A DNA stretch of 64,000 nt from Dehalococcoidia bacterium (GCA_963663185.1 OY760135.1:1587170-1651169), one strand, 5' to 3'. Shown: positions 9,254-41,279, numbered from the stretch's first letter. The notes: generated by a model from the sequence alone, not told the origin. Numbers and translations: made by a program.

Positions 9254-9316
9254 TCAGGCTGTGGCTTCCTACACAGATGAACGGATGATTGCACCATGTC
9301 TTGGCGACCCAAGCGA

Positions 9317-10558
9317 ATGAAATTCGGACTCTTCCTGGCCCCGTTCCACCACGTGGGCGAGCACCCCACCCTGGCGATGCAACGCGACGTTGAGCTGATC
9401 GAGCATCTCGACGATCTGGGCTACGACGAGGCCTGGATCGGCGAGCATCACTCGTTTGCTCGCGAGATCATCTCCAACCCGATGATCTTCATCGCGGCGC
9501 TGGCAGAGCGCACCAAGCACATCAAGCTTGGCACGGGCGTGGTCTCGCTGCCGTACCACAATCCACTGATGATCGCGGACGATCTGCTCCAGCTCGACCA
9601 CATGACGCGTGGTCGCGTGATGCTCGGTGTCGGACCGGGCGCGCTGACCTCCGACGCCGTGCAGATGGGCATTGAACCGACCACGCAGCGTCGGCGCATG
9701 TCAGAGTCGTTCGATGCTATCGTTGCGCTCGCTCGCAGCGAAGAGCCGGTCTCCATGGAGACTGACTGGTTCTCGCTGACGGAGGCTCGGCTGCAGATGT
9801 CCTGGTACTCGGACCCGCATCCCGAGCTGGCGGTCGCGGTGATCCTCACTCCATCCGGTCCGCAGCTGGCCGGCAAGCATGGCGCCAGCCTGCTCTCCGT
9901 GGCAGGGGCCGATTCTGAGGGCATGAAGAACGTCTGGAGCTGGTACGAGGAGGCCGCGGCGGAGAATGGCCACGAGGTCTCGCGCAAGAACTGGCGCGTC
10001 GTCACCGCGGTCCATGTCGCCGAGACTCGCGCGCAGGCCATCGAGGATGTCCGCGCCGGCTTCCTCAAGCGCGCCTACGTCGGTGATGTGCGCGATCCTG
10101 GACGTCGCGGCGGTATCGCTCTGCAGATGGCGGACACCATCGAGGAAGCGATCGACAAGAACATGGTGATCGTCGGCTCGCCCGACGACGCGGTTGACCA
10201 GATTGAAGCCATGCACGACCGCTCTGGCGGCATAGGCGGATTGCTTGGCATGCACCACGAATGGGCCTCAACCGACGCCACCAAACGCAGCTACGAGTTG
10301 CTCATGCGATATGTCGCGCCGCGCTATCAGGGGCAACTCGATCGGCTCGTGGCGTCGCGCGACTTCGTTGAGGACCGCCAACTCGACATCTTTGGCGCGG
10401 GTCAGAAGGCGATGGCCAAAGCCTTCTCCGACGCCGGCAAGGAGCTCCCCGAGGCCTTCCGCCAGGCAGCGGCGGACCGGGCCGCCCTGTCCTCCAACGT
10501 GTCCTCCAACGGCGCCGAAACCCCAGCCGAAGCAGAAGCTGAGCCGGTCGCCGATTAG
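9317..10558 (+). CDS. LLM-class flavin-dependent oxidoreductase (limonene monooxygenase-like)
   Basis: MKFGLFLAPFH...GYDEAWIGEHHS...LGTGVVSLPYHNP. Confidence 0.9.
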   Translation: MKFGLFLAPFHHVGEHPTLAMQRDVELIEHLDDLGYDEAWIGEHHSFAREIISNPMIFIAALAERTKHIKLGTGVVSLPYHNPLMIADDLLQLDHMTRGRVMLGVGPGALTSDAVQMGIEPTTQRRRMSESFDAIVALARSEEPVSMETDWFSLTEARLQMSWYSDPHPELAVAVILTPSGPQLAGKHGASLLSVAGADSEGMKNVWSWYEEAAAENGHEVSRKNWRVVTAVHVAETRAQAIEDVRAGFLKRAYVGDVRDPGRRGGIALQMADTIEEAIDKNMVIVGSPDDAVDQIEAMHDRSGGIGGLLGMHHEWASTDATKRSYELLMRYVAPRYQGQLDRLVASRDFVEDRQLDIFGAGQKAMAKAFSDAGKELPEAFRQAAADRAALSSNVSSNGAETPAEAEAEPVAD

Positions 10559-11363: not shown

Positions 11364-11941
11364 ATGACTGAAGCCAGCTTGCCGATTCAGTGGCGGGCAG
11401 GAAAGAACGGTATCCTCTCGCAATGGACAACTTGACCTCTCCGGGCAACGTCTGGCATGATGGTTGGAATAGCACACGAGAGTGCATGAGCATTGATATT
11501 GGTGATCCTGGTGAAGGAGTCCCTGGTCGGCCAGTGTATGCTGCGGGATACAATCCGAGACCCGTTGCAGCCTATGTATGGGCCAGACAGGCACAGCGGT
11601 GCATCGCATATCTCACCACCACAAACGATGATTCGCCACCTTCCTTTTCCGGCGGCCCCGCCGATCCATTAGTTAGGCTCGTGCATATCGATTTCTCGGT
11701 CGCTAATCCGAGGTCGATCGGATCATCTTGGAAGCTGCTTCAGCGGATCGATCCCTACAACGGGTTCGCGATCTACCTCAGCGTGACATCAGTGGTTTCT
11801 GGGGGTACCGACGAGTGCGACAACGAGTCAGATGGAGCCCATCTGCATATGGATGCGCCTGAGTCAGAGAGCGGCTCGCGCAACTTGTCGCTGAGTAGCG
11901 GTCAGTCGGTCTCCACTACAACCAACGTGTTCGGAACCTAA
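11364..11941 (+). pseudogene. Divergent LasA/M23-like Zn metallopeptidase, copy A, with an apparent -1 frameshift near 11420-11435
   Basis: GGAGG RBS then ATG 11364 (MTEASLPIQWRAGKNGILSQ, TGA at 11433-11435). Homology to copy B continues in the 11390-11941 frame: WH-x12-D(IG), LVHID, GAHLHMD. Confidence 0.7.
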
Positions 11942-11956
11942 GACAGGAGAGATACG

Positions 11957-12130
11957 ATGTCAACTTCTACGGCAGCAACTGTCCGATACCTGGGCGACGA
12001 ACCGCTGACTCTGATGCTTGCGACTGAGGAGGTGTATCACTTTGAGCCGAGAGCGGACGCGCGAAGTGTGCTGGCTGAGGACCTCGACTTGTTCCGAGAT
12101 TTGCCGCAGTTCGAGGTGGATGAAGGCTAG
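11957..12130 (+). CDS. 57-aa hypothetical protein homologous to the C-terminal domain of M23 copy B
   Basis: AGGAGA RBS; MSTSTAATVRYLGDEPLTLMLATEEVYHFEPRADARSVLAEDLDLFRDLPQFEVDEG; same frame as the upstream ORF. Confidence 0.75.
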   Translation: MSTSTAATVRYLGDEPLTLMLATEEVYHFEPRADARSVLAEDLDLFRDLPQFEVDEG

Positions 12131-12178: not shown

Positions 12179-13414
12179 GTGATTACGGCGGGCATGCTGA
12201 GTCCATGCGCCCTCCAACTTGCGCGGGCCGGAGTGATCTGGACTGTCGCCGCAATCGCGTTTGTTGCACCGTTTGTTGCACATGGTGGTGGTGGGCTTGA
12301 ACCCGTAGCGGCTAGATCGACGCCACACACTACGTATGCTCAGGCTGAGCGCTCTGATGCCGCCTGGTACCGAATAGCCGTTCTCACTGTCCAAGTCGAC
12401 GCAGCGCTGGAAGCGCTTCTGTTTGAACACCGGTGCCGACCCTATGGCTCAACTCCATCGACAGATGAGCAACCACTATTCGGCAAATATGCGATACATG
12501 AAGCACTGACCGCCGCTCGTCTGATGTGGCCCCATGTACTCACACTCTCTCCAGTACTGTCGAAGTATTACTGGCCGCTGCGGTTCCGCTTGGGGCAGAT
12601 TGCGCAAACCCGAGGGCAAGAACGAGCTGAGTTGGTTTGCCGTCCCGACTTCCACCTCATTCGAAGTCGTTGGAATCAAGTGCTCTCCGGTTCGGCGCCC
12701 GGCATACAACCCCCGTTTCATTGGCCAACCTTGCAGCGGCTCGGCGCATTGCGCCGGATTGGCGCAGCGTTTGATCGCGCCGTCGACACGACTTGCCACA
12801 GCCTAGATGCTGCAGATGCTGCGCTAACTTCAGATCCCGCTCAGGTTGCTGTGCTGAAACATTCTTTAGGTGCGGCCACAGCTACATTACGGAGCGCCCC
12901 TACTCCCAAGCCTCGTCAACGAGGATTGTTCCATCTGTGGCAAGGAAATCAGAGCGCTGTGGGGGAGTGGACGTCCGACCTGGAACGATCGTTAGGAGAT
13001 GGCGTTCGCCGCCACGTCTGTGGGCATCTGCTGTATCAGTTGCTTTGGGGTTCGTATTACACATGGCTGAGCCAAGACTACGATGAAGACGAGGCAATGA
13101 AACTGGATCAATTGCTGCAGTGGACTCAACTTGAGGTTGGTCTACGCCAAATCTGCGACTTCCCGAAGAGTGCCGCCTCACCGCTGATTCTCTTTAGCAT
13201 CGACAGGCTTGTGTCGCCTGTGCGTACCGTAGCTCCGTTGCCGGTCGAACTCCGCCCTCAACGGGATGAAGTCGTCGTAGCGGTGCAGAAATGGTTGCCT
13301 GAGCGTGATCAGGTGAGATCGTTGGAGGTGGGCGCTGTGACCTGTCCGGACTCGTCTCTGCAATCACTATCGGCGTTCTTGACCAACATCGCCGCACTTC
13401 CGCCTACGGATTGA
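12179..13414 (+). CDS. Hypothetical exported/membrane-anchored protein (cassette A partner)
   Basis: 411-aa ORF, N-terminal hydrophobic segment, lower GC than flanks; start may be 12194. Confidence 0.6.
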   Translation: MITAGMLSPCALQLARAGVIWTVAAIAFVAPFVAHGGGGLEPVAARSTPHTTYAQAERSDAAWYRIAVLTVQVDAALEALLFEHRCRPYGSTPSTDEQPLFGKYAIHEALTAARLMWPHVLTLSPVLSKYYWPLRFRLGQIAQTRGQERAELVCRPDFHLIRSRWNQVLSGSAPGIQPPFHWPTLQRLGALRRIGAAFDRAVDTTCHSLDAADAALTSDPAQVAVLKHSLGAATATLRSAPTPKPRQRGLFHLWQGNQSAVGEWTSDLERSLGDGVRRHVCGHLLYQLLWGSYYTWLSQDYDEDEAMKLDQLLQWTQLEVGLRQICDFPKSAASPLILFSIDRLVSPVRTVAPLPVELRPQRDEVVVAVQKWLPERDQVRSLEVGAVTCPDSSLQSLSAFLTNIAALPPTD

Positions 13415-15532: not shown

Positions 15533-17194
<1,662 letters not shown>

Positions 17195-39408: not shown

Positions 39409-40407
39409 TTATCCAACCAGGCAAGACAACAACAAGTCTTCGTACGTACTCACAGCCTGCCGCGCAATTTCATTGTCGCCAAAGCGAAATCCATCCGTCA
39501 AGTGACTTCCATCATTTCTTGATATCCACAACCGCCTCATCTCTTCCGACCACAGCTCCAACAGCCTCAACATCGGTTGCTCAGCCTGCAGTACACTAGG
39601 CCCGCACTGCTCATGGCGCACAATAACAGATGCTCCGCTAAACGCCTTTATCTGTGTTTGAGCAATACTCACAGCCAACAACAGCTTCGACGTCCCATCC
39701 TTATCATTACTTGAATTCCCAGTGCTTCCATAACAGGCCGTCACTAAGCAACTCTCCAACAGACTCCGCTTAATCAAGTGCAACTCAATCAACAACCTCC
39801 CTTCCCCACTACGCGAGGAATAAAGCGCATTGGAGTTTGTTCGTTCACCAGGTAACGACCACAACGCTCGATACATTGCATCTATCGCACCGTGAACATC
39901 ATTGCTACAGCGAAGCCCATCCAATACTGGATATTCAGATACTGCGACCGATAGGCAGTGATCGAAATCGCGCAACTGTTGCAATAGAGCAGTGCTAGCC
40001 CTGTACAGCCGGTCTTCGCTATTCTCCTCTCCAAGCAATTGGCCGCGCCACCCTTGCAGCATCTGAATCAACACACCAACTCGGAATTGTGATGCTTCGA
40101 GGGTACCCACGGCCCCACTGCGCAAGGCCTCCGCGTGATTGTCGTTGAAATATTCTTTGAGAAGCAGGGATGCCGAATCATACGCAAGTTCAATGTCAGC
40201 CATTAACACAACGATGCGCAATACCTCTGCATCAAATGGAATCTCTTCAGGCCGCAACTCCCTGCGCCCTCCATCCGATGTCACCGAATCCGGCGACTCC
40301 AAGCTTTGAGATCCGGATCCCGGGATCGGATCATGGCAACCGGTGAACAAGACCATGCTCAGGAACACCGCCAACCATGGGAGCACGACCCGCAACGGCA
40401 TCCGCAT
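39409..40407 (-). CDS. Hypothetical lipoprotein (cassette B partner)
   Basis: Lipobox VLFTGC; lower GC than flanks. Confidence 0.7.
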   Translation of the reverse strand: MRMPLRVVLPWLAVFLSMVLFTGCHDPIPGSGSQSLESPDSVTSDGGRRELRPEEIPFDAEVLRIVVLMADIELAYDSASLLLKEYFNDNHAEALRSGAVGTLEASQFRVGVLIQMLQGWRGQLLGEENSEDRLYRASTALLQQLRDFDHCLSVAVSEYPVLDGLRCSNDVHGAIDAMYRALWSLPGERTNSNALYSSRSGEGRLLIELHLIKRSLLESCLVTACYGSTGNSSNDKDGTSKLLLAVSIAQTQIKAFSGASVIVRHEQCGPSVLQAEQPMLRLLELWSEEMRRLWISRNDGSHLTDGFRFGDNEIARQAVSTYEDLLLSCLVG

Positions 40408-40448: not shown

Positions 40449-41279
40449 CTAGCAGTGCCCGCACGGTGTAGGACCGTCCAGATCGGAGTAGCGATCACTT
40501 TCGGGTTCAACCACCAGTATGAAGTTGGGTAAATCGACTAAGCGTTTGGCGTCGGCCCACCTGACTTGAACCGCTTGATGCTCAGGTTCGAAGTCGAAGC
40601 GGCCATGGTGGTCTAGCTGCACGGATATCCGTTCTGTTCCACGATACTGGACCCAGACTAAGTCCGCTGCAGATGGCTCTGGGCCGAACGTGAAGGCTAG
40701 ATCGCCCGTGTCGACCTGTTGGTTGTGGTACAGGTCGCAATTCTTCGTCGCCCAACCAGGCGCATCCATATGCAGATGTTCACCAAAGTATCGCCAACTG
40801 CACAAGTCTCGGTTGTTCGGCTGTTGGGGTGAAACTTGACTCAGTGAGATAGTCGTTGCGGACAACGGCGCAACTGAACCAACCCTCGGCCAGACTCCAG
40901 TGCGAAGATTACGCGGATTTGAGCTGTCGAAATCCATATGCGCGTAGCGAACCACAGGATCACTTGCGGATATCGGGAGAGCGATCGTTGGTTGAGTGGG
41001 GCTTGCCATAGCCACGGCCGCACAGTCATTGAGTCTCATTGCCCACAGTGAGACTGACGAAAGCGACGGATTGACACCCGAAATGTATGTTGGATCACCG
41101 GACGTGGCGCCAATGTCCAATCCCATACAGCTTCGTTGACAGTGTTCGCCTTCGCCGTCGCAGAACGAATTGTGCCAAGGGGAAGCCTGCCCCGTCGGAG
41201 TACATCCGCAACCATTCTGGCTACTGGAGATATGGGCCGACGCCCCTATTCGCCACTCGAAAGTGAGAACGTGTTCCAT
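40449..41279 (-). CDS. Divergent LasA/M23-like Zn metallopeptidase, copy B, with fused C-terminal small domain
   Basis: H36...D55(LDIG), RYAHMD (H114), GEHLHMD (H168/H170); AGAGG RBS; no signal peptide; Cys-rich. Confidence 0.75.
   Translation of the reverse strand: MEHVLTFEWRIGASAHISSSQNGCGCTPTGQASPWHNSFCDGEGEHCQRSCMGLDIGATSGDPTYISGVNPSLSSVSLWAMRLNDCAAVAMASPTQPTIALPISASDPVVRYAHMDFDSSNPRNLRTGVWPRVGSVAPLSATTISLSQVSPQQPNNRDLCSWRYFGEHLHMDAPGWATKNCDLYHNQQVDTGDLAFTFGPEPSAADLVWVQYRGTERISVQLDHHGRFDFEPEHQAVQVRWADAKRLVDLPNFILVVEPESDRYSDLDGPTPCGHC

What the first reader, a model, noticed from the sequence alone, without database searches (positions are those of the whole stretch)
11957..12130. Small unknown domain: separate gene in cassette A, fused in cassette B
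VRYLGDEPLTLMLATEEVYHFEPRADARSVLAEDLDLFRDLPQF aligns without gaps to VQYRGTERISVQLDHHGRFDFEPEHQAVQVRWADAKRLVDLPNF (about 40506-40658 on the - strand, C-terminus of copy B). In A it lies in the same frame 15 nt after the peptidase TAA and has its own AGGAGA RBS. This fusion/fission implies physical partnership, for example a targeting, secretion or chaperone module. The ORF is below the track's size cut-off.
Basis: partly seen in the sequence, partly recalled or inferred. Interest (0 to 1): 0.65.

Follow-up and report, generated by a model that had tools for sequence, protein, structure and literature searches.

The report
Detachable tail domain of M23-like enzyme
A 57-codon gene in this marine Dehalococcoidia genome encodes a small protein domain that matches no described family. 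In a second copy of the same gene cassette that domain is fused to the end of the neighbouring M23-like enzyme; the split/fused pair is real and recurs in relatives, but the family is tiny and its function is inferred, not shown.

Summary
ORF 11957-12130 (+, 57 aa, "S") is homologous to residues about 207-256 of the 276-aa protein at 40449-41279 (-).

- **Pairwise match:** BLASTP gives E = 8e-6, 15/44 identical, no gaps.
- **Independent profile test:** an HMM built only from 17 non-window relatives finds exactly these two places among all 62,365 six-frame ORFs of the genome (E = 2e-19 and 5e-11; next best 0.78).
- **Relatives:** at least 11 distinct loci carry S as a separate gene with its own Shine-Dalgarno site and start. 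About 6 carry it fused.
- **Frame:** the shared reading frame in cassette A is not conserved (5 loci in frame, 6 out of frame), so stop-codon read-through is not the mechanism.
- **Association:** S was never found without the enzyme gene "E" directly upstream. Stand-alone S proteins are strongly acidic, while their E partners are mostly neutral to basic.
- **Rate:** S evolves about three times faster than E.
- **E identity:** E carries M23-like motifs, but Pfam, profile-profile comparison and Foldseek do not confirm membership.
- **Third gene:** it encodes a hypervariable exported lipoprotein ("L").
- **Distribution:** the cassette is a low-GC accessory insert in 6 of 37 genomes of the genus.
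- **This genome:** E of cassette A carries a 1-nt deletion.

Best reading: S is a detachable, non-catalytic partner or specificity module of E. Its function is untested, and interest is modest.

The parts
11364..11435 (+). 5' fragment of the enzyme-like gene E of cassette A: 23 codons (MTEASLPIQWRAGKNGILSQWTT), then a stop.
Evidence: One search gives the translation. A 98.7%-identical strain (L040) reads through as one 192-aa ORF. The window lacks one base at about 11434 (tgcacc becomes tgacc).
11390..11941 (+). Main ORF of E, cassette A (183 aa from GTG). It is an M23-like domain with WH, CMSIDIG, VRLVHID and GAHLHMDAP motifs. It has no signal peptide and ends in TAA.
   Evidence: 30% identity to copy B, E = 2e-19; family alignment; no Pfam hit.
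11942..11956 (+). 15-nt spacer gacAGGAGAgatacg carrying the Shine-Dalgarno-like site for the small gene.
   Evidence: Analogous GGAG-type sites lie upstream of every stand-alone S gene seen.
11957..12130 (+). S, the small domain gene (57 aa, net charge -9). Predicted fold is four beta strands, one helix and a fifth strand.
   Evidence: HMM E = 2.3e-19; AF2 pLDDT 80.9; charge.
12179..13414 (+). L, the partner exported protein of cassette A (411 aa, N-terminal hydrophobic signal or anchor, helical, hypervariable).
   Evidence: no BLAST similarity to the copy-B partner. Orthologues sit in the same slot in L040, L014, L041 and L043.
40680..41279 (-). E domain of the fused protein of cassette B (residues 1-200).
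   Evidence: all-beta model, pLDDT about 90-97.
40512..40661 (-). S domain fused to E in cassette B (residues 207-256), behind a GPEPSAAD linker.
   Evidence: strands 207-212, 218-222, 226-230, 237-240, helix 241-248, strand 253-256; HMM E = 4.8e-11.
40449..40511 (-). Acidic, Cys-containing C-terminal tail of the fused form (…DRYSDLDGPTPCGHC) plus the stop codon. It is absent from stand-alone S proteins.
   Evidence: tails DLDGDCGGCK, EEGCDSCSG, GGCCGGH, GGCGC… in other fused members; pLDDT below 65.
39409..40407 (-). L, the partner lipoprotein of cassette B (332 aa, lipobox LFTGC).
   Evidence: An analogous lipoprotein gene lies next to every cassette seen.

Best explanation
What it is. S is a genuine protein-coding gene for a roughly 50-residue alpha/beta domain (four strands, a helix, a fifth strand). 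It is the detachable C-terminal module of a lineage-specific, M23-like, probably zinc-dependent enzyme, E.

Two architectures. In some cassettes S is made in cis, joined to E by a short Pro-rich linker, as in copy B. In others it is made in trans from its own ribosome-binding site 3-19 nt after the stop of E, as in copy A.

Inferred steps.
- Close stop-start spacing gives coupled, roughly equimolar synthesis.
- The acidic free S binds its more basic E non-covalently.
- S acts as a fast-evolving, non-catalytic specificity or binding module rather than as a catalytic part. This would resemble the C-terminal wall-binding domains of M23 lysins and the separately made binding subunits of some endolysins.
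- E(+S) forms the effector half of a small accessory cassette. The other half is a hypervariable exported lipoprotein L, which looks like an immunity or partner protein.

Shown: homology, independent ORFs, both architectures, strict E-S adjacency, relative rates, charge pattern, accessory distribution. Inferred: binding, the role of S, peptidase activity, and the toxin/immunity logic.
For: Homology and recurrence.

Independent translation. S ORFs are intact with SD-like sites at spacers of 15, 12, 12, 12 and 3 nt (in frame) and 11, 11, 17, 17, 19 and 5 nt (out of frame).

Coding constraint. pN is below pS for S in every pair, and dN/dS is about 0.2-0.4 where it can be estimated.

Strict association. 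All 8 stand-alone S clusters whose context was read have E directly upstream. No S occurs elsewhere in this genome.

Partnership. Free S has net charge -8 to -11. Its E partner has net charge 0 to +5 in 4 of 6 pairs. Fused S domains carry 0 to -2. The AF2 model of the fused protein has pLDDT 89.7 and pTM 0.80, and the S segment scores higher there than when modelled alone.

S follows E, not L. One genome (G048) keeps only L in the same slot, with no trace of E or S.

Fast evolution of S. G023/L013: E 76%, S 45%, L 44% identity. L008/G042: dN/dS 0.09 for E against 0.38 for S.

E resembles M23. The conserved set WH…D, a third His and HLH fits the H(x)nD + HxH + upstream-His definition (PMC9662197 read). 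The best PDB fold hit is an M23 peptidoglycan peptidase. hhalign aligns the GxDI…G.PV motif.

Accessory cassette. It sits in low-GC islands, occurs in 6 of 37 genomes of the genus, and the slot is empty in most genomes checked.
Against: - No direct evidence of S-E binding. No PAE or multimer model was available, and there is no experiment.
- An acidic domain is unusual for a wall-binding module.
- E has no signal peptide, and no export or lysis gene is in the cassettes. How an E-S complex would meet the exported L or a cell wall is unexplained.
- M23 membership is unconfirmed: no PF01551 hit at E <= 1, hhalign probability 44% over 16 columns, Foldseek E = 0.11 with TM 0.24.
- S shows no significant fold match. 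PsaD-like hits have E >= 0.4. Small uncharacterised phage proteins give E >= 0.012.
- The mirror-tree test found no S-L co-evolution beyond shared history (partial r = 0.17, p = 0.24).
- S stays intact beside disrupted E genes in 5 loci whose S was read. This would also fit an inhibitor role.
Confidence: 0.5

Rival explanations
1. S is an autoinhibitor, or an antitoxin-like or cytoplasmic immunity module. It would keep E latent in the producer, in trans when split and as a zymogen-like or sensor domain when fused. The Cys/acidic tail of fused forms could cap the metal site.
For: - S is a small, very acidic protein encoded immediately after a possibly harmful enzyme.
- S evolves fast, as immunity or antitoxin proteins do.
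- E is disrupted in about 7 of about 19 loci, and S next to it remains intact in the 5 of those loci where S was read.
- Fused forms add an acidic CxxC-type tail.
- From my own knowledge: fused and split toxin-antitoxin pairs exist, for example CapRel.
Against: - Intact fused forms are common. An inhibitor permanently tethered to its enzyme needs an activation step for which nothing is seen.
- The one locus that lost E also lost S while keeping L. That is the reverse of an orphan-immunity pattern for S.
- Each broken E has only one or two lesions, so the intact S may simply reflect recent decay.
- The tail is low-confidence and undocked in the AF2 summary.
Confidence: 0.2
2. S is an export adaptor or chaperone that delivers the signal-less E to a secretion or release route.
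For: E lacks any signal peptide, while its genetic partner L is exported. Small co-encoded partners of secreted effectors are common (my own knowledge).
Against: No secretion, holin or lysis gene lies in or next to any cassette. S shows no similarity to known adaptor or chaperone families in Pfam, NCBIfam, PHROGs or PADLOC. A chaperone is rarely fused permanently to its cargo.
Confidence: 0.1
3. In this particular genome, S of cassette A is a leftover of a cassette that is being lost. E_A is frameshifted, so S_A has no working partner here. This applies only to the window copy, not to the family.
For: There is a 1-nt deletion at about 11434 relative to the 98.7%-identical strain L040, where E is an intact 192-aa ORF. 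Between the two strains S has 2 non-synonymous changes, 1 synonymous change and a changed stop codon in 174 nt.
Against: The S ORF and its SD site are intact. A restart at GTG 11390 or ATG 11423 could still give most of E. The deletion could be an assembly error in a long-read MAG. The other copy (B) supplies its own fused S.
Confidence: 0.15
4. E and S of cassette A are really one gene, expressed as a fusion by programmed stop-codon read-through.
For: The TAA and the S start are in the same frame, 15 nt apart. Four other split loci are also in frame.
Against: Six distinct split loci have 5-, 11-, 11-, 17-, 17- and 19-nt spacers, so they are out of frame. The stop codon differs between loci (TAA, TGA, TAG). 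Every S has its own SD site and start. No Rfam element is present.
Confidence: 0.02

Closest known systems
M23 lysins with a C-terminal binding domain (lysostaphin M23+SH3b; zoocin A M23+TRD)
   Same: An N-terminal all-beta enzyme domain carries an HxH motif, followed by a short flexible linker and a small, beta-rich, non-catalytic C-terminal domain. The architecture is described in PMC9662197.
   Different: - E is not recognised by the Pfam M23 model.
- S is about 50 aa, acidic, and has no SH3b or other family match.
- There is no signal peptide.
- The C-terminal domain can be a separate gene.
Two-polypeptide endolysins (the binding domain is made separately and assembles with the full-length enzyme, e.g. 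CTP1L; PlyC from two genes)
   Same: The non-catalytic module is supplied as its own polypeptide, with its own ribosome-binding site next to or inside the enzyme gene, and forms a complex with the enzyme (PMC4777826, PMC9430671 and PMC12203907; PlyC from my own knowledge).
   Different: In those systems the short product shares frame and stop codon with the long one, and the context is a phage lysis cassette. Here a true stop separates the two genes, the frame is not conserved, no phage genes are nearby, and the complex is only inferred.
Peptidoglycan-hydrolase effector plus immunity lipoprotein pairs (e.g. T6SS amidase or muramidase effectors with periplasmic immunity proteins; colicin M/Cmi). 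My own knowledge.
   Same: A small accessory cassette pairs a wall-enzyme-like protein with an adjacent exported, fast-evolving partner. Its distribution is patchy. One locus has an orphan partner.
   Different: No secretion system or release gene is linked. Immunity function of L is untested. Those systems have no S-like third component.
Fused or split toxin-antitoxin modules such as CapRel (my own knowledge)
   Same: A conserved enzymatic N-terminal part is paired with a small, fast-evolving C-terminal part that occurs either fused or as a separate downstream gene.
   Different: There is no sequence or fold relation. E is not a known toxin family. A lipoprotein gene is part of the cassette. 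There is no link to phage defence (no PADLOC hit).
Small uncharacterised phage proteins of 55-70 aa in BFVD (e.g. A0A8S5RVD2, J9PUM2)
   Same: Similar strand-strand-strand-strand-helix-strand topology. TM-scores normalised to the query are 0.60-0.70.
   Different: E-values are 0.012 or worse, identity is 7-24%, and none has a known function. This is a lead only.

Membership tests
Peptidase M23 (for the partner enzyme E) | HxH motif (second zinc ligand and catalytic His) | tested here: met
   G-x-H-L-H-M-D-x-P is invariant in all members that include this region. The definition comes from PMC9662197.
Peptidase M23 (for the partner enzyme E) | H(x)nD motif (first two zinc ligands) | tested here: inconclusive
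   The Asp of x-G-[IL]-D-[IV] is invariant (D55 of copy B). The residue four positions before it is Cys or Gly, not His. A conserved W-H lies 18-20 residues upstream and could serve as H(x)nD.
Peptidase M23 (for the partner enzyme E) | Additional catalytic His upstream of HxH | tested here: inconclusive
   An invariant His sits in V-R-x-x-H-[ILM]-D (H114 of copy B). It lies 54 residues before HxH rather than about 30.
Peptidase M23 (for the partner enzyme E) | Match to the family profile (Pfam PF01551) or to canonical members | tested here: not met
   No Pfam hit at E <= 1, while the same model finds 5 canonical M23 genes in this genome. hhalign against those five gives 16 columns at 44% probability.
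Peptidase M23 (for the partner enzyme E) | M23 fold | tested here: inconclusive
   The confident all-beta model has pLDDT 89.7. The top PDB hit is an M23 peptidoglycan peptidase (6jmx), but with E = 0.11 and TM 0.24-0.26.
SH3b or other known cell-wall-binding domain (for S) | Profile or fold match to a known binding domain | tested here: not met
   No Pfam family matched at E <= 1 for S_A, and at E <= 5 only two chance-level single-member hits appeared (LSM 0.078, Apis_Csd 0.12) across 18 S sequences. There are no NCBIfam or PHROG hits. The top 50 Foldseek PDB hits contain no SH3b, and the best hit is PsaD at E = 0.42.
Type II toxin-antitoxin or known defence system | Match of any component to known TA or defence families | tested here: not met
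   PADLOC gives nothing for E or S, and only chance-level hits for L. Pfam and NCBIfam give nothing.
Domain fusion/fission ('Rosetta stone') pair | The same two homologous modules occur both as one polypeptide and as two adjacent genes in related genomes | tested here: met
   Split: window A, L040, G023, L013, L008, G042, L011, L037, L014, L041, L043, L015. Fused: window B, P0006, P0010, P0008, P0012, G011. The E tree needs at least two changes of architecture.

The most novel reading that the evidence does not exclude
E(+S)/L is an undescribed polymorphic effector-immunity type of system in marine Dehalococcoidia. In it a signal-less, highly divergent LAS/M23-like enzyme carries a new-fold, hypervariable, detachable module S that sets partner or target specificity. 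S might be the surface read by the cognate lipoprotein L, or a sensor that releases the enzyme. The repeated switch between fused and split forms would then be part of how specificities diversify.
Probability: 0.2. Interest if true: 0.6.

Novelty: new variant of a known kind. Interest (0 to 1): 0.35.

Why it matters
If the reading holds, it defines a new small domain family with no match in Pfam, NCBIfam, PHROGs or the PDB. It would also provide a clean natural example of one accessory module being used both in cis and in trans with a lytic-enzyme-like protein. The lineage is uncultured and ocean-dwelling, and its cell-envelope biology and cell-cell antagonism are essentially unknown.

The split/fused pair gives a direct, testable prediction of a protein-protein interaction.

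The limits are clear. The family is very small (25 clusters among 1.84 billion representatives), restricted to a narrow lineage, and often decaying. Gene fission and fusion are in themselves ordinary evolutionary events.

Tried and rejected
Searches that found nothing useful
- Pfam, PHROGs, NCBIfam and PADLOC scans of E, S and L gave nothing meaningful.
- A PDB sequence search with the family profile gave only a chance-level hit.
- Foldseek found no significant match. Whole protein against PDB: best E = 0.11. S against PDB: best PsaD at E = 0.42. S against BFVD: best E = 0.012, all uncharacterised.
- The word-indexed 5.8-billion-protein searches found only the protein itself or a handful of close relatives.
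- Rfam and promoter/terminator scans of cassette A gave nothing above background.

Tests that were inconclusive
- hhalign of E against this genome's five canonical M23 domains gave only a 16-column local match at 44% probability.
- The mirror-tree test of S-L co-evolution, controlling for E, was not significant (partial r = 0.17, p = 0.24).
- The close-strain comparison (window against L040) has too few changes for a dN/dS estimate.

Ideas rejected
- Stop-codon read-through of E into S is rejected, because 6 of 11 distinct split loci are out of frame.
- The 3,900-aa repeat protein P0023, which scored E = 1.6e-5 with the whole-family profile, is not a member. Each repeat scores under 10 bits against the S model.

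Not available

Full report
**1. The observation**

Cassette A (+ strand) holds three ORFs:
- 11390-11941, 183 aa, called E here;
- 11957-12130, 57 aa, called S;
- 12179-13414, 411 aa, called L.

Between the TAA of E and the ATG of S lie 15 nt, gacAGGAGAgatacg, in frame, with AGGAGA 6 nt before the start.

Cassette B (- strand) holds a 276-aa ORF at 40449-41279, followed by a 332-aa lipoprotein gene at 39409-40407.

The enzyme-like parts are 30% identical (E = 2e-19). The two L proteins are not detectably similar. Both cassettes are lower in G+C (about 0.55) than their surroundings (about 0.64). The genome (3.28 Mb, one contig) has only these two copies.

**2. Is it more than chance?**

Yes. 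A profile of four family members was run against 1.84 billion representative proteins and returned 25 hits:
- fused proteins of 242-286 aa;
- E-only proteins of 150-197 aa;
- eight stand-alone S proteins of 64-69 aa (sequences, alignment).

As an independent control I built an S-only HMM from 17 sequences. None came from this genome or its near-identical strain. I searched it against every six-frame ORF of at least 30 aa in the genome (62,365 ORFs). Only S_A (E = 2.3e-19, 70.8 bits) and the C-terminus of B (E = 4.8e-11) were found, and the next hit had E = 0.78.

A 3,900-aa repeat protein that appeared is spurious. It scores under 10 bits per repeat against the S model.

**3. S is a separate gene, not a decayed tail and not a read-through product**

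Record titles name the relatives as Dehalococcoidia MAGs. Metagenome contigs come from marine surveys, including TARA.

| Arrangement | Loci and E-stop to S-start spacer |
|---|---|
| In frame | window A and L040 (15 nt), G023 (12), L013 (12), L011 (12, GTG start), L037 (3) |
| Out of frame | L008 (11), G042 (11), L014 (17), L041 (17), L043 (19), L015 (5) |

Each S has a GGAG-type site upstream. Stop codons vary (TAA, TGA, TAG). The shared frame in A is therefore incidental, and read-through is rejected as a mechanism.

S shows coding constraint. In all orthologous pairs pN is below pS, and dN/dS is 0.2-0.4 where dS can be estimated.

No terminator-like site lies between E, S and the start of L in cassette A. 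The one site found sits inside L, and the scan is at background level. A single operon is plausible, but this is an inference.

**4. Both architectures recur**

- Fused: window B and its 98% variant P0001, P0006, P0010, P0008, P0012, G011, and the fragment P0025.
- Split: the loci listed in section 3.

In an E-domain tree the split loci for which an E sequence was included (A, G023, L013, L008, L011, plus P0007 and P0013, whose architecture was not checked) form one clade with support 81/87. Three of these, plus L014 and L041, occupy the same chromosomal slot as cassette A, between thiamine pyrophosphokinase (TPK) and an MBL-fold alkylsulfatase (MBL). The split P0009/L037 locus falls outside that clade among the fused forms. 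At least two changes of architecture are needed, and only 4% of bootstrap trees allow a single change. The direction (fission or fusion) is not resolved, because the outgroup branch is long.

Fused forms always add an acidic tail ending in Cys motifs (DLDGPTPCGHC, DLDGDCGGCK, EEGCDSCSG, GGCCGGH, GGCGC…). Stand-alone S proteins lack this tail.

**5. What accompanies S**

For all eight stand-alone S clusters whose context was read, E lies directly upstream and a lipoprotein gene L lies next to the pair. L is downstream, upstream, or both in tandem arrays. No phage, secretion, holin or mobility genes are part of the cassette.

The cassette is accessory:
- Six of 37 genomes of the genus carry a real member.
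- Of eight genus genomes checked, the TPK|MBL slot is essentially empty in four (1-116 nt between the genes). Two more have gaps of about 300 and 550 nt with no E or S remnant.
- One genome (G048) has an L homologue only, with no E or S remnant. One (G024) holds something else.

S therefore travels with E, whereas L can persist alone.

**6. Properties that bear on function**

- *Structure.* The fused protein gives a confident model with the 28-sequence alignment (pLDDT 89.7, pTM 0.80). E is all-beta. S (207-256) is four strands, a helix and a fifth strand, with block pLDDT 88-96. The tail is disordered. S_A alone gives the same topology at pLDDT 80.9.
- *Fold matches.* None is significant. The whole protein's best PDB hit is the M23 peptidoglycan peptidase 6jmx (E = 0.11, TM 0.24). 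S gives PsaD-like hits at E >= 0.4. In BFVD it matches many small uncharacterised phage proteins, with query-normalised TM-scores of 0.6-0.7 but E >= 0.012.
- *Charge.* Stand-alone S has net charge -8 to -11. Fused S domains carry 0 to -2, with the negative charge moved to the tail. E is neutral to basic (0 to +5) in four of six split pairs, and -5 to -10 in fused proteins. This is what one expects if electrostatics replace the covalent link. It is suggestive, not proof.
- *Rates.* S diverges about three times faster than E and about as fast as L. For G023/L013 the identities are E 76%, S 45%, L 44%. For L008/G042, dN is 0.106 for E and 0.369 for S.
- *Co-evolution.* A partial Mantel test for S-L co-evolution beyond shared history is not significant.
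- *Decay.* E is disrupted in about 7 of about 19 distinct loci. The cases are window A, L043/44, L015-17, L014, G021, G011, and the deletion chimera P0016. In the five split loci among these (window A, L043/44, L015-17, L014, G021) S beside E is intact. G011 is a fused form, and P0016 has lost the start of S.

**7. The enzyme partner**

E has no signal peptide. It conserves W-H, x-G-[IL]-D-[IV]…G-x-P-[VT]-Y, V-R-x-x-H-[ILM]-D and G-x-H-L-H-M-D-x-P, plus several Cys.

The M23 family is defined by H(x)nD and HxH plus an upstream His (PMC9662197), and the set of conserved residues in E fits that count. Against this:
- the Pfam M23 model does not hit E at E <= 1, although it finds five canonical M23 genes in this genome;
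- hhalign against those five aligns only 16 columns around the GxDI motif (44% probability);
- Foldseek is inconclusive.

I therefore call E 'M23-like, probably a metallopeptidase' and do not file it as an M23 member.

A still more distant E' (331 aa, MAIDIG…YTHLD…GPHLHQ), paired with a lipoprotein but with no S, exists in three genus genomes.

**8. Cassette A in this genome**

A 98.7%-identical strain (L040) has an intact 192-aa E beginning MTEASLPIQWRAG… The window lacks one base at about 11434. E_A is therefore split into a 23-codon fragment (11364-11435) and the 183-aa ORF. The deletion may be real decay or an assembly error.

Between the two strains S differs by two non-synonymous changes, one synonymous change, and TAG replaced by TCG, which adds 9 residues in L040.

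**9. Interpretation**

- Firm: S is a real, previously undescribed small domain that exists both fused to E and as a separate gene tightly linked to E.
- Most likely (about 0.7): S binds E.
- Preferred role (about 0.35): a non-catalytic specificity or binding module. This is the usual role of the C-terminal domain of M23 lysins (PMC9662197), and it has a precedent for separate synthesis in two-polypeptide endolysins (PMC4777826, PMC9430671, PMC12203907). It fits the fast evolution of S, its loss together with E, and the fused architecture.
- Main rival (about 0.2): an inhibitor or antitoxin-like role. It fits the acidity, the gene order, the frequent inactivation of E, and the Cys tail.
- Less likely (about 0.1): an export adaptor.

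The larger picture, E(+S) as effector and L as immunity-like lipoprotein, is inferred from the patchy accessory distribution, low G+C, the hypervariability of L and one orphan L. It leaves unexplained how a signal-less E would leave the cytoplasm.

**10. Verdict**

This is an ordinary evolutionary event (domain fission or fusion) in an unusual, very small and narrowly distributed orphan cassette. Interest is modest (0.35). Novelty: a new variant of a known kind, namely a modular lytic-enzyme-like protein with a detachable accessory domain.

Noticed in passing
window 11364-11441: The enzyme gene of cassette A has a 1-nt deletion at about 11434 relative to a 98.7%-identical strain (L040), where it is an intact 192-aa ORF. 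Here it stops after 23 codons and resumes in another frame.
   Followed up: yes
window 12128-12130: The TAG stop of the small gene is TCG (Ser) in the close strain L040, which extends that protein by 9 residues to 66 aa. The C-terminal end of S is therefore not constrained.
   Followed up: partly
window 40449-40511; P0006, P0008, P0010, P0012, P0015, P0025: All fused E-S proteins end in an acidic stretch (D-x-[FY]-x-D-L-D-G) followed by Cys/Gly motifs (CGHC, CGGC, CDSC, GGCCGG, GGCGC…). Stand-alone S proteins lack this. It could be a metal-binding, redox or cysteine-switch tail.
   Followed up: no
L051 (G048) 453-1340; L045-L050, L052: The TPK|alkylsulfatase slot that holds cassette A is essentially empty (1-116 nt between the genes) in four of eight genus genomes checked. 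Two more have gaps of about 300 and 550 nt with no E or S remnant. One (G048) holds only an L-type lipoprotein gene with no trace of E or S.
   Followed up: partly
L024 1396-2391 (-), also G051 and G010: A more distant relative of E (331 aa, with a basic, low-complexity N-terminal extension and MAIDIG…YTHLD…GPHLHQ motifs) is followed by a lipoprotein gene but has no S domain.
   Followed up: partly
L037 283-2606; L006 833-3267: Cassettes can form tandem arrays in the order L-E-S-L, or L-E(S)-L. The lipoproteins share an N-terminal helical motif (…DALRLLALLSQLQ.EL.I…LI.P…WPL) and a C-x4-C motif despite otherwise extreme divergence.
   Followed up: partly
L043/L044, L015-L017, L014, L023 (G021), L006 (G011), P0016: The enzyme gene is disrupted in roughly a third of loci by frameshifts, an internal deletion, or an in-frame deletion that joins the E N-terminus to S. 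Some frameshifts recur in several independent contigs. This suggests E is costly or frequently lost.
   Followed up: partly
window 41142-41273 (residues 3-46 of copy B): All six amino-acid differences between copy B and its 98%-identical variant P0001 fall in the first 46 residues. None lies in the catalytic-motif region or in S.
   Followed up: no
window 15584-17194 and 9296-10558: The surroundings (luciferase-like monooxygenase, enoyl-CoA hydratase, acyl-CoA dehydrogenase, alkylsulfatase, amidohydrolase) and the marine sample sources fit a SAR202-type Dehalococcoidia. That name rests on my own knowledge, not on a test here.
   Followed up: no
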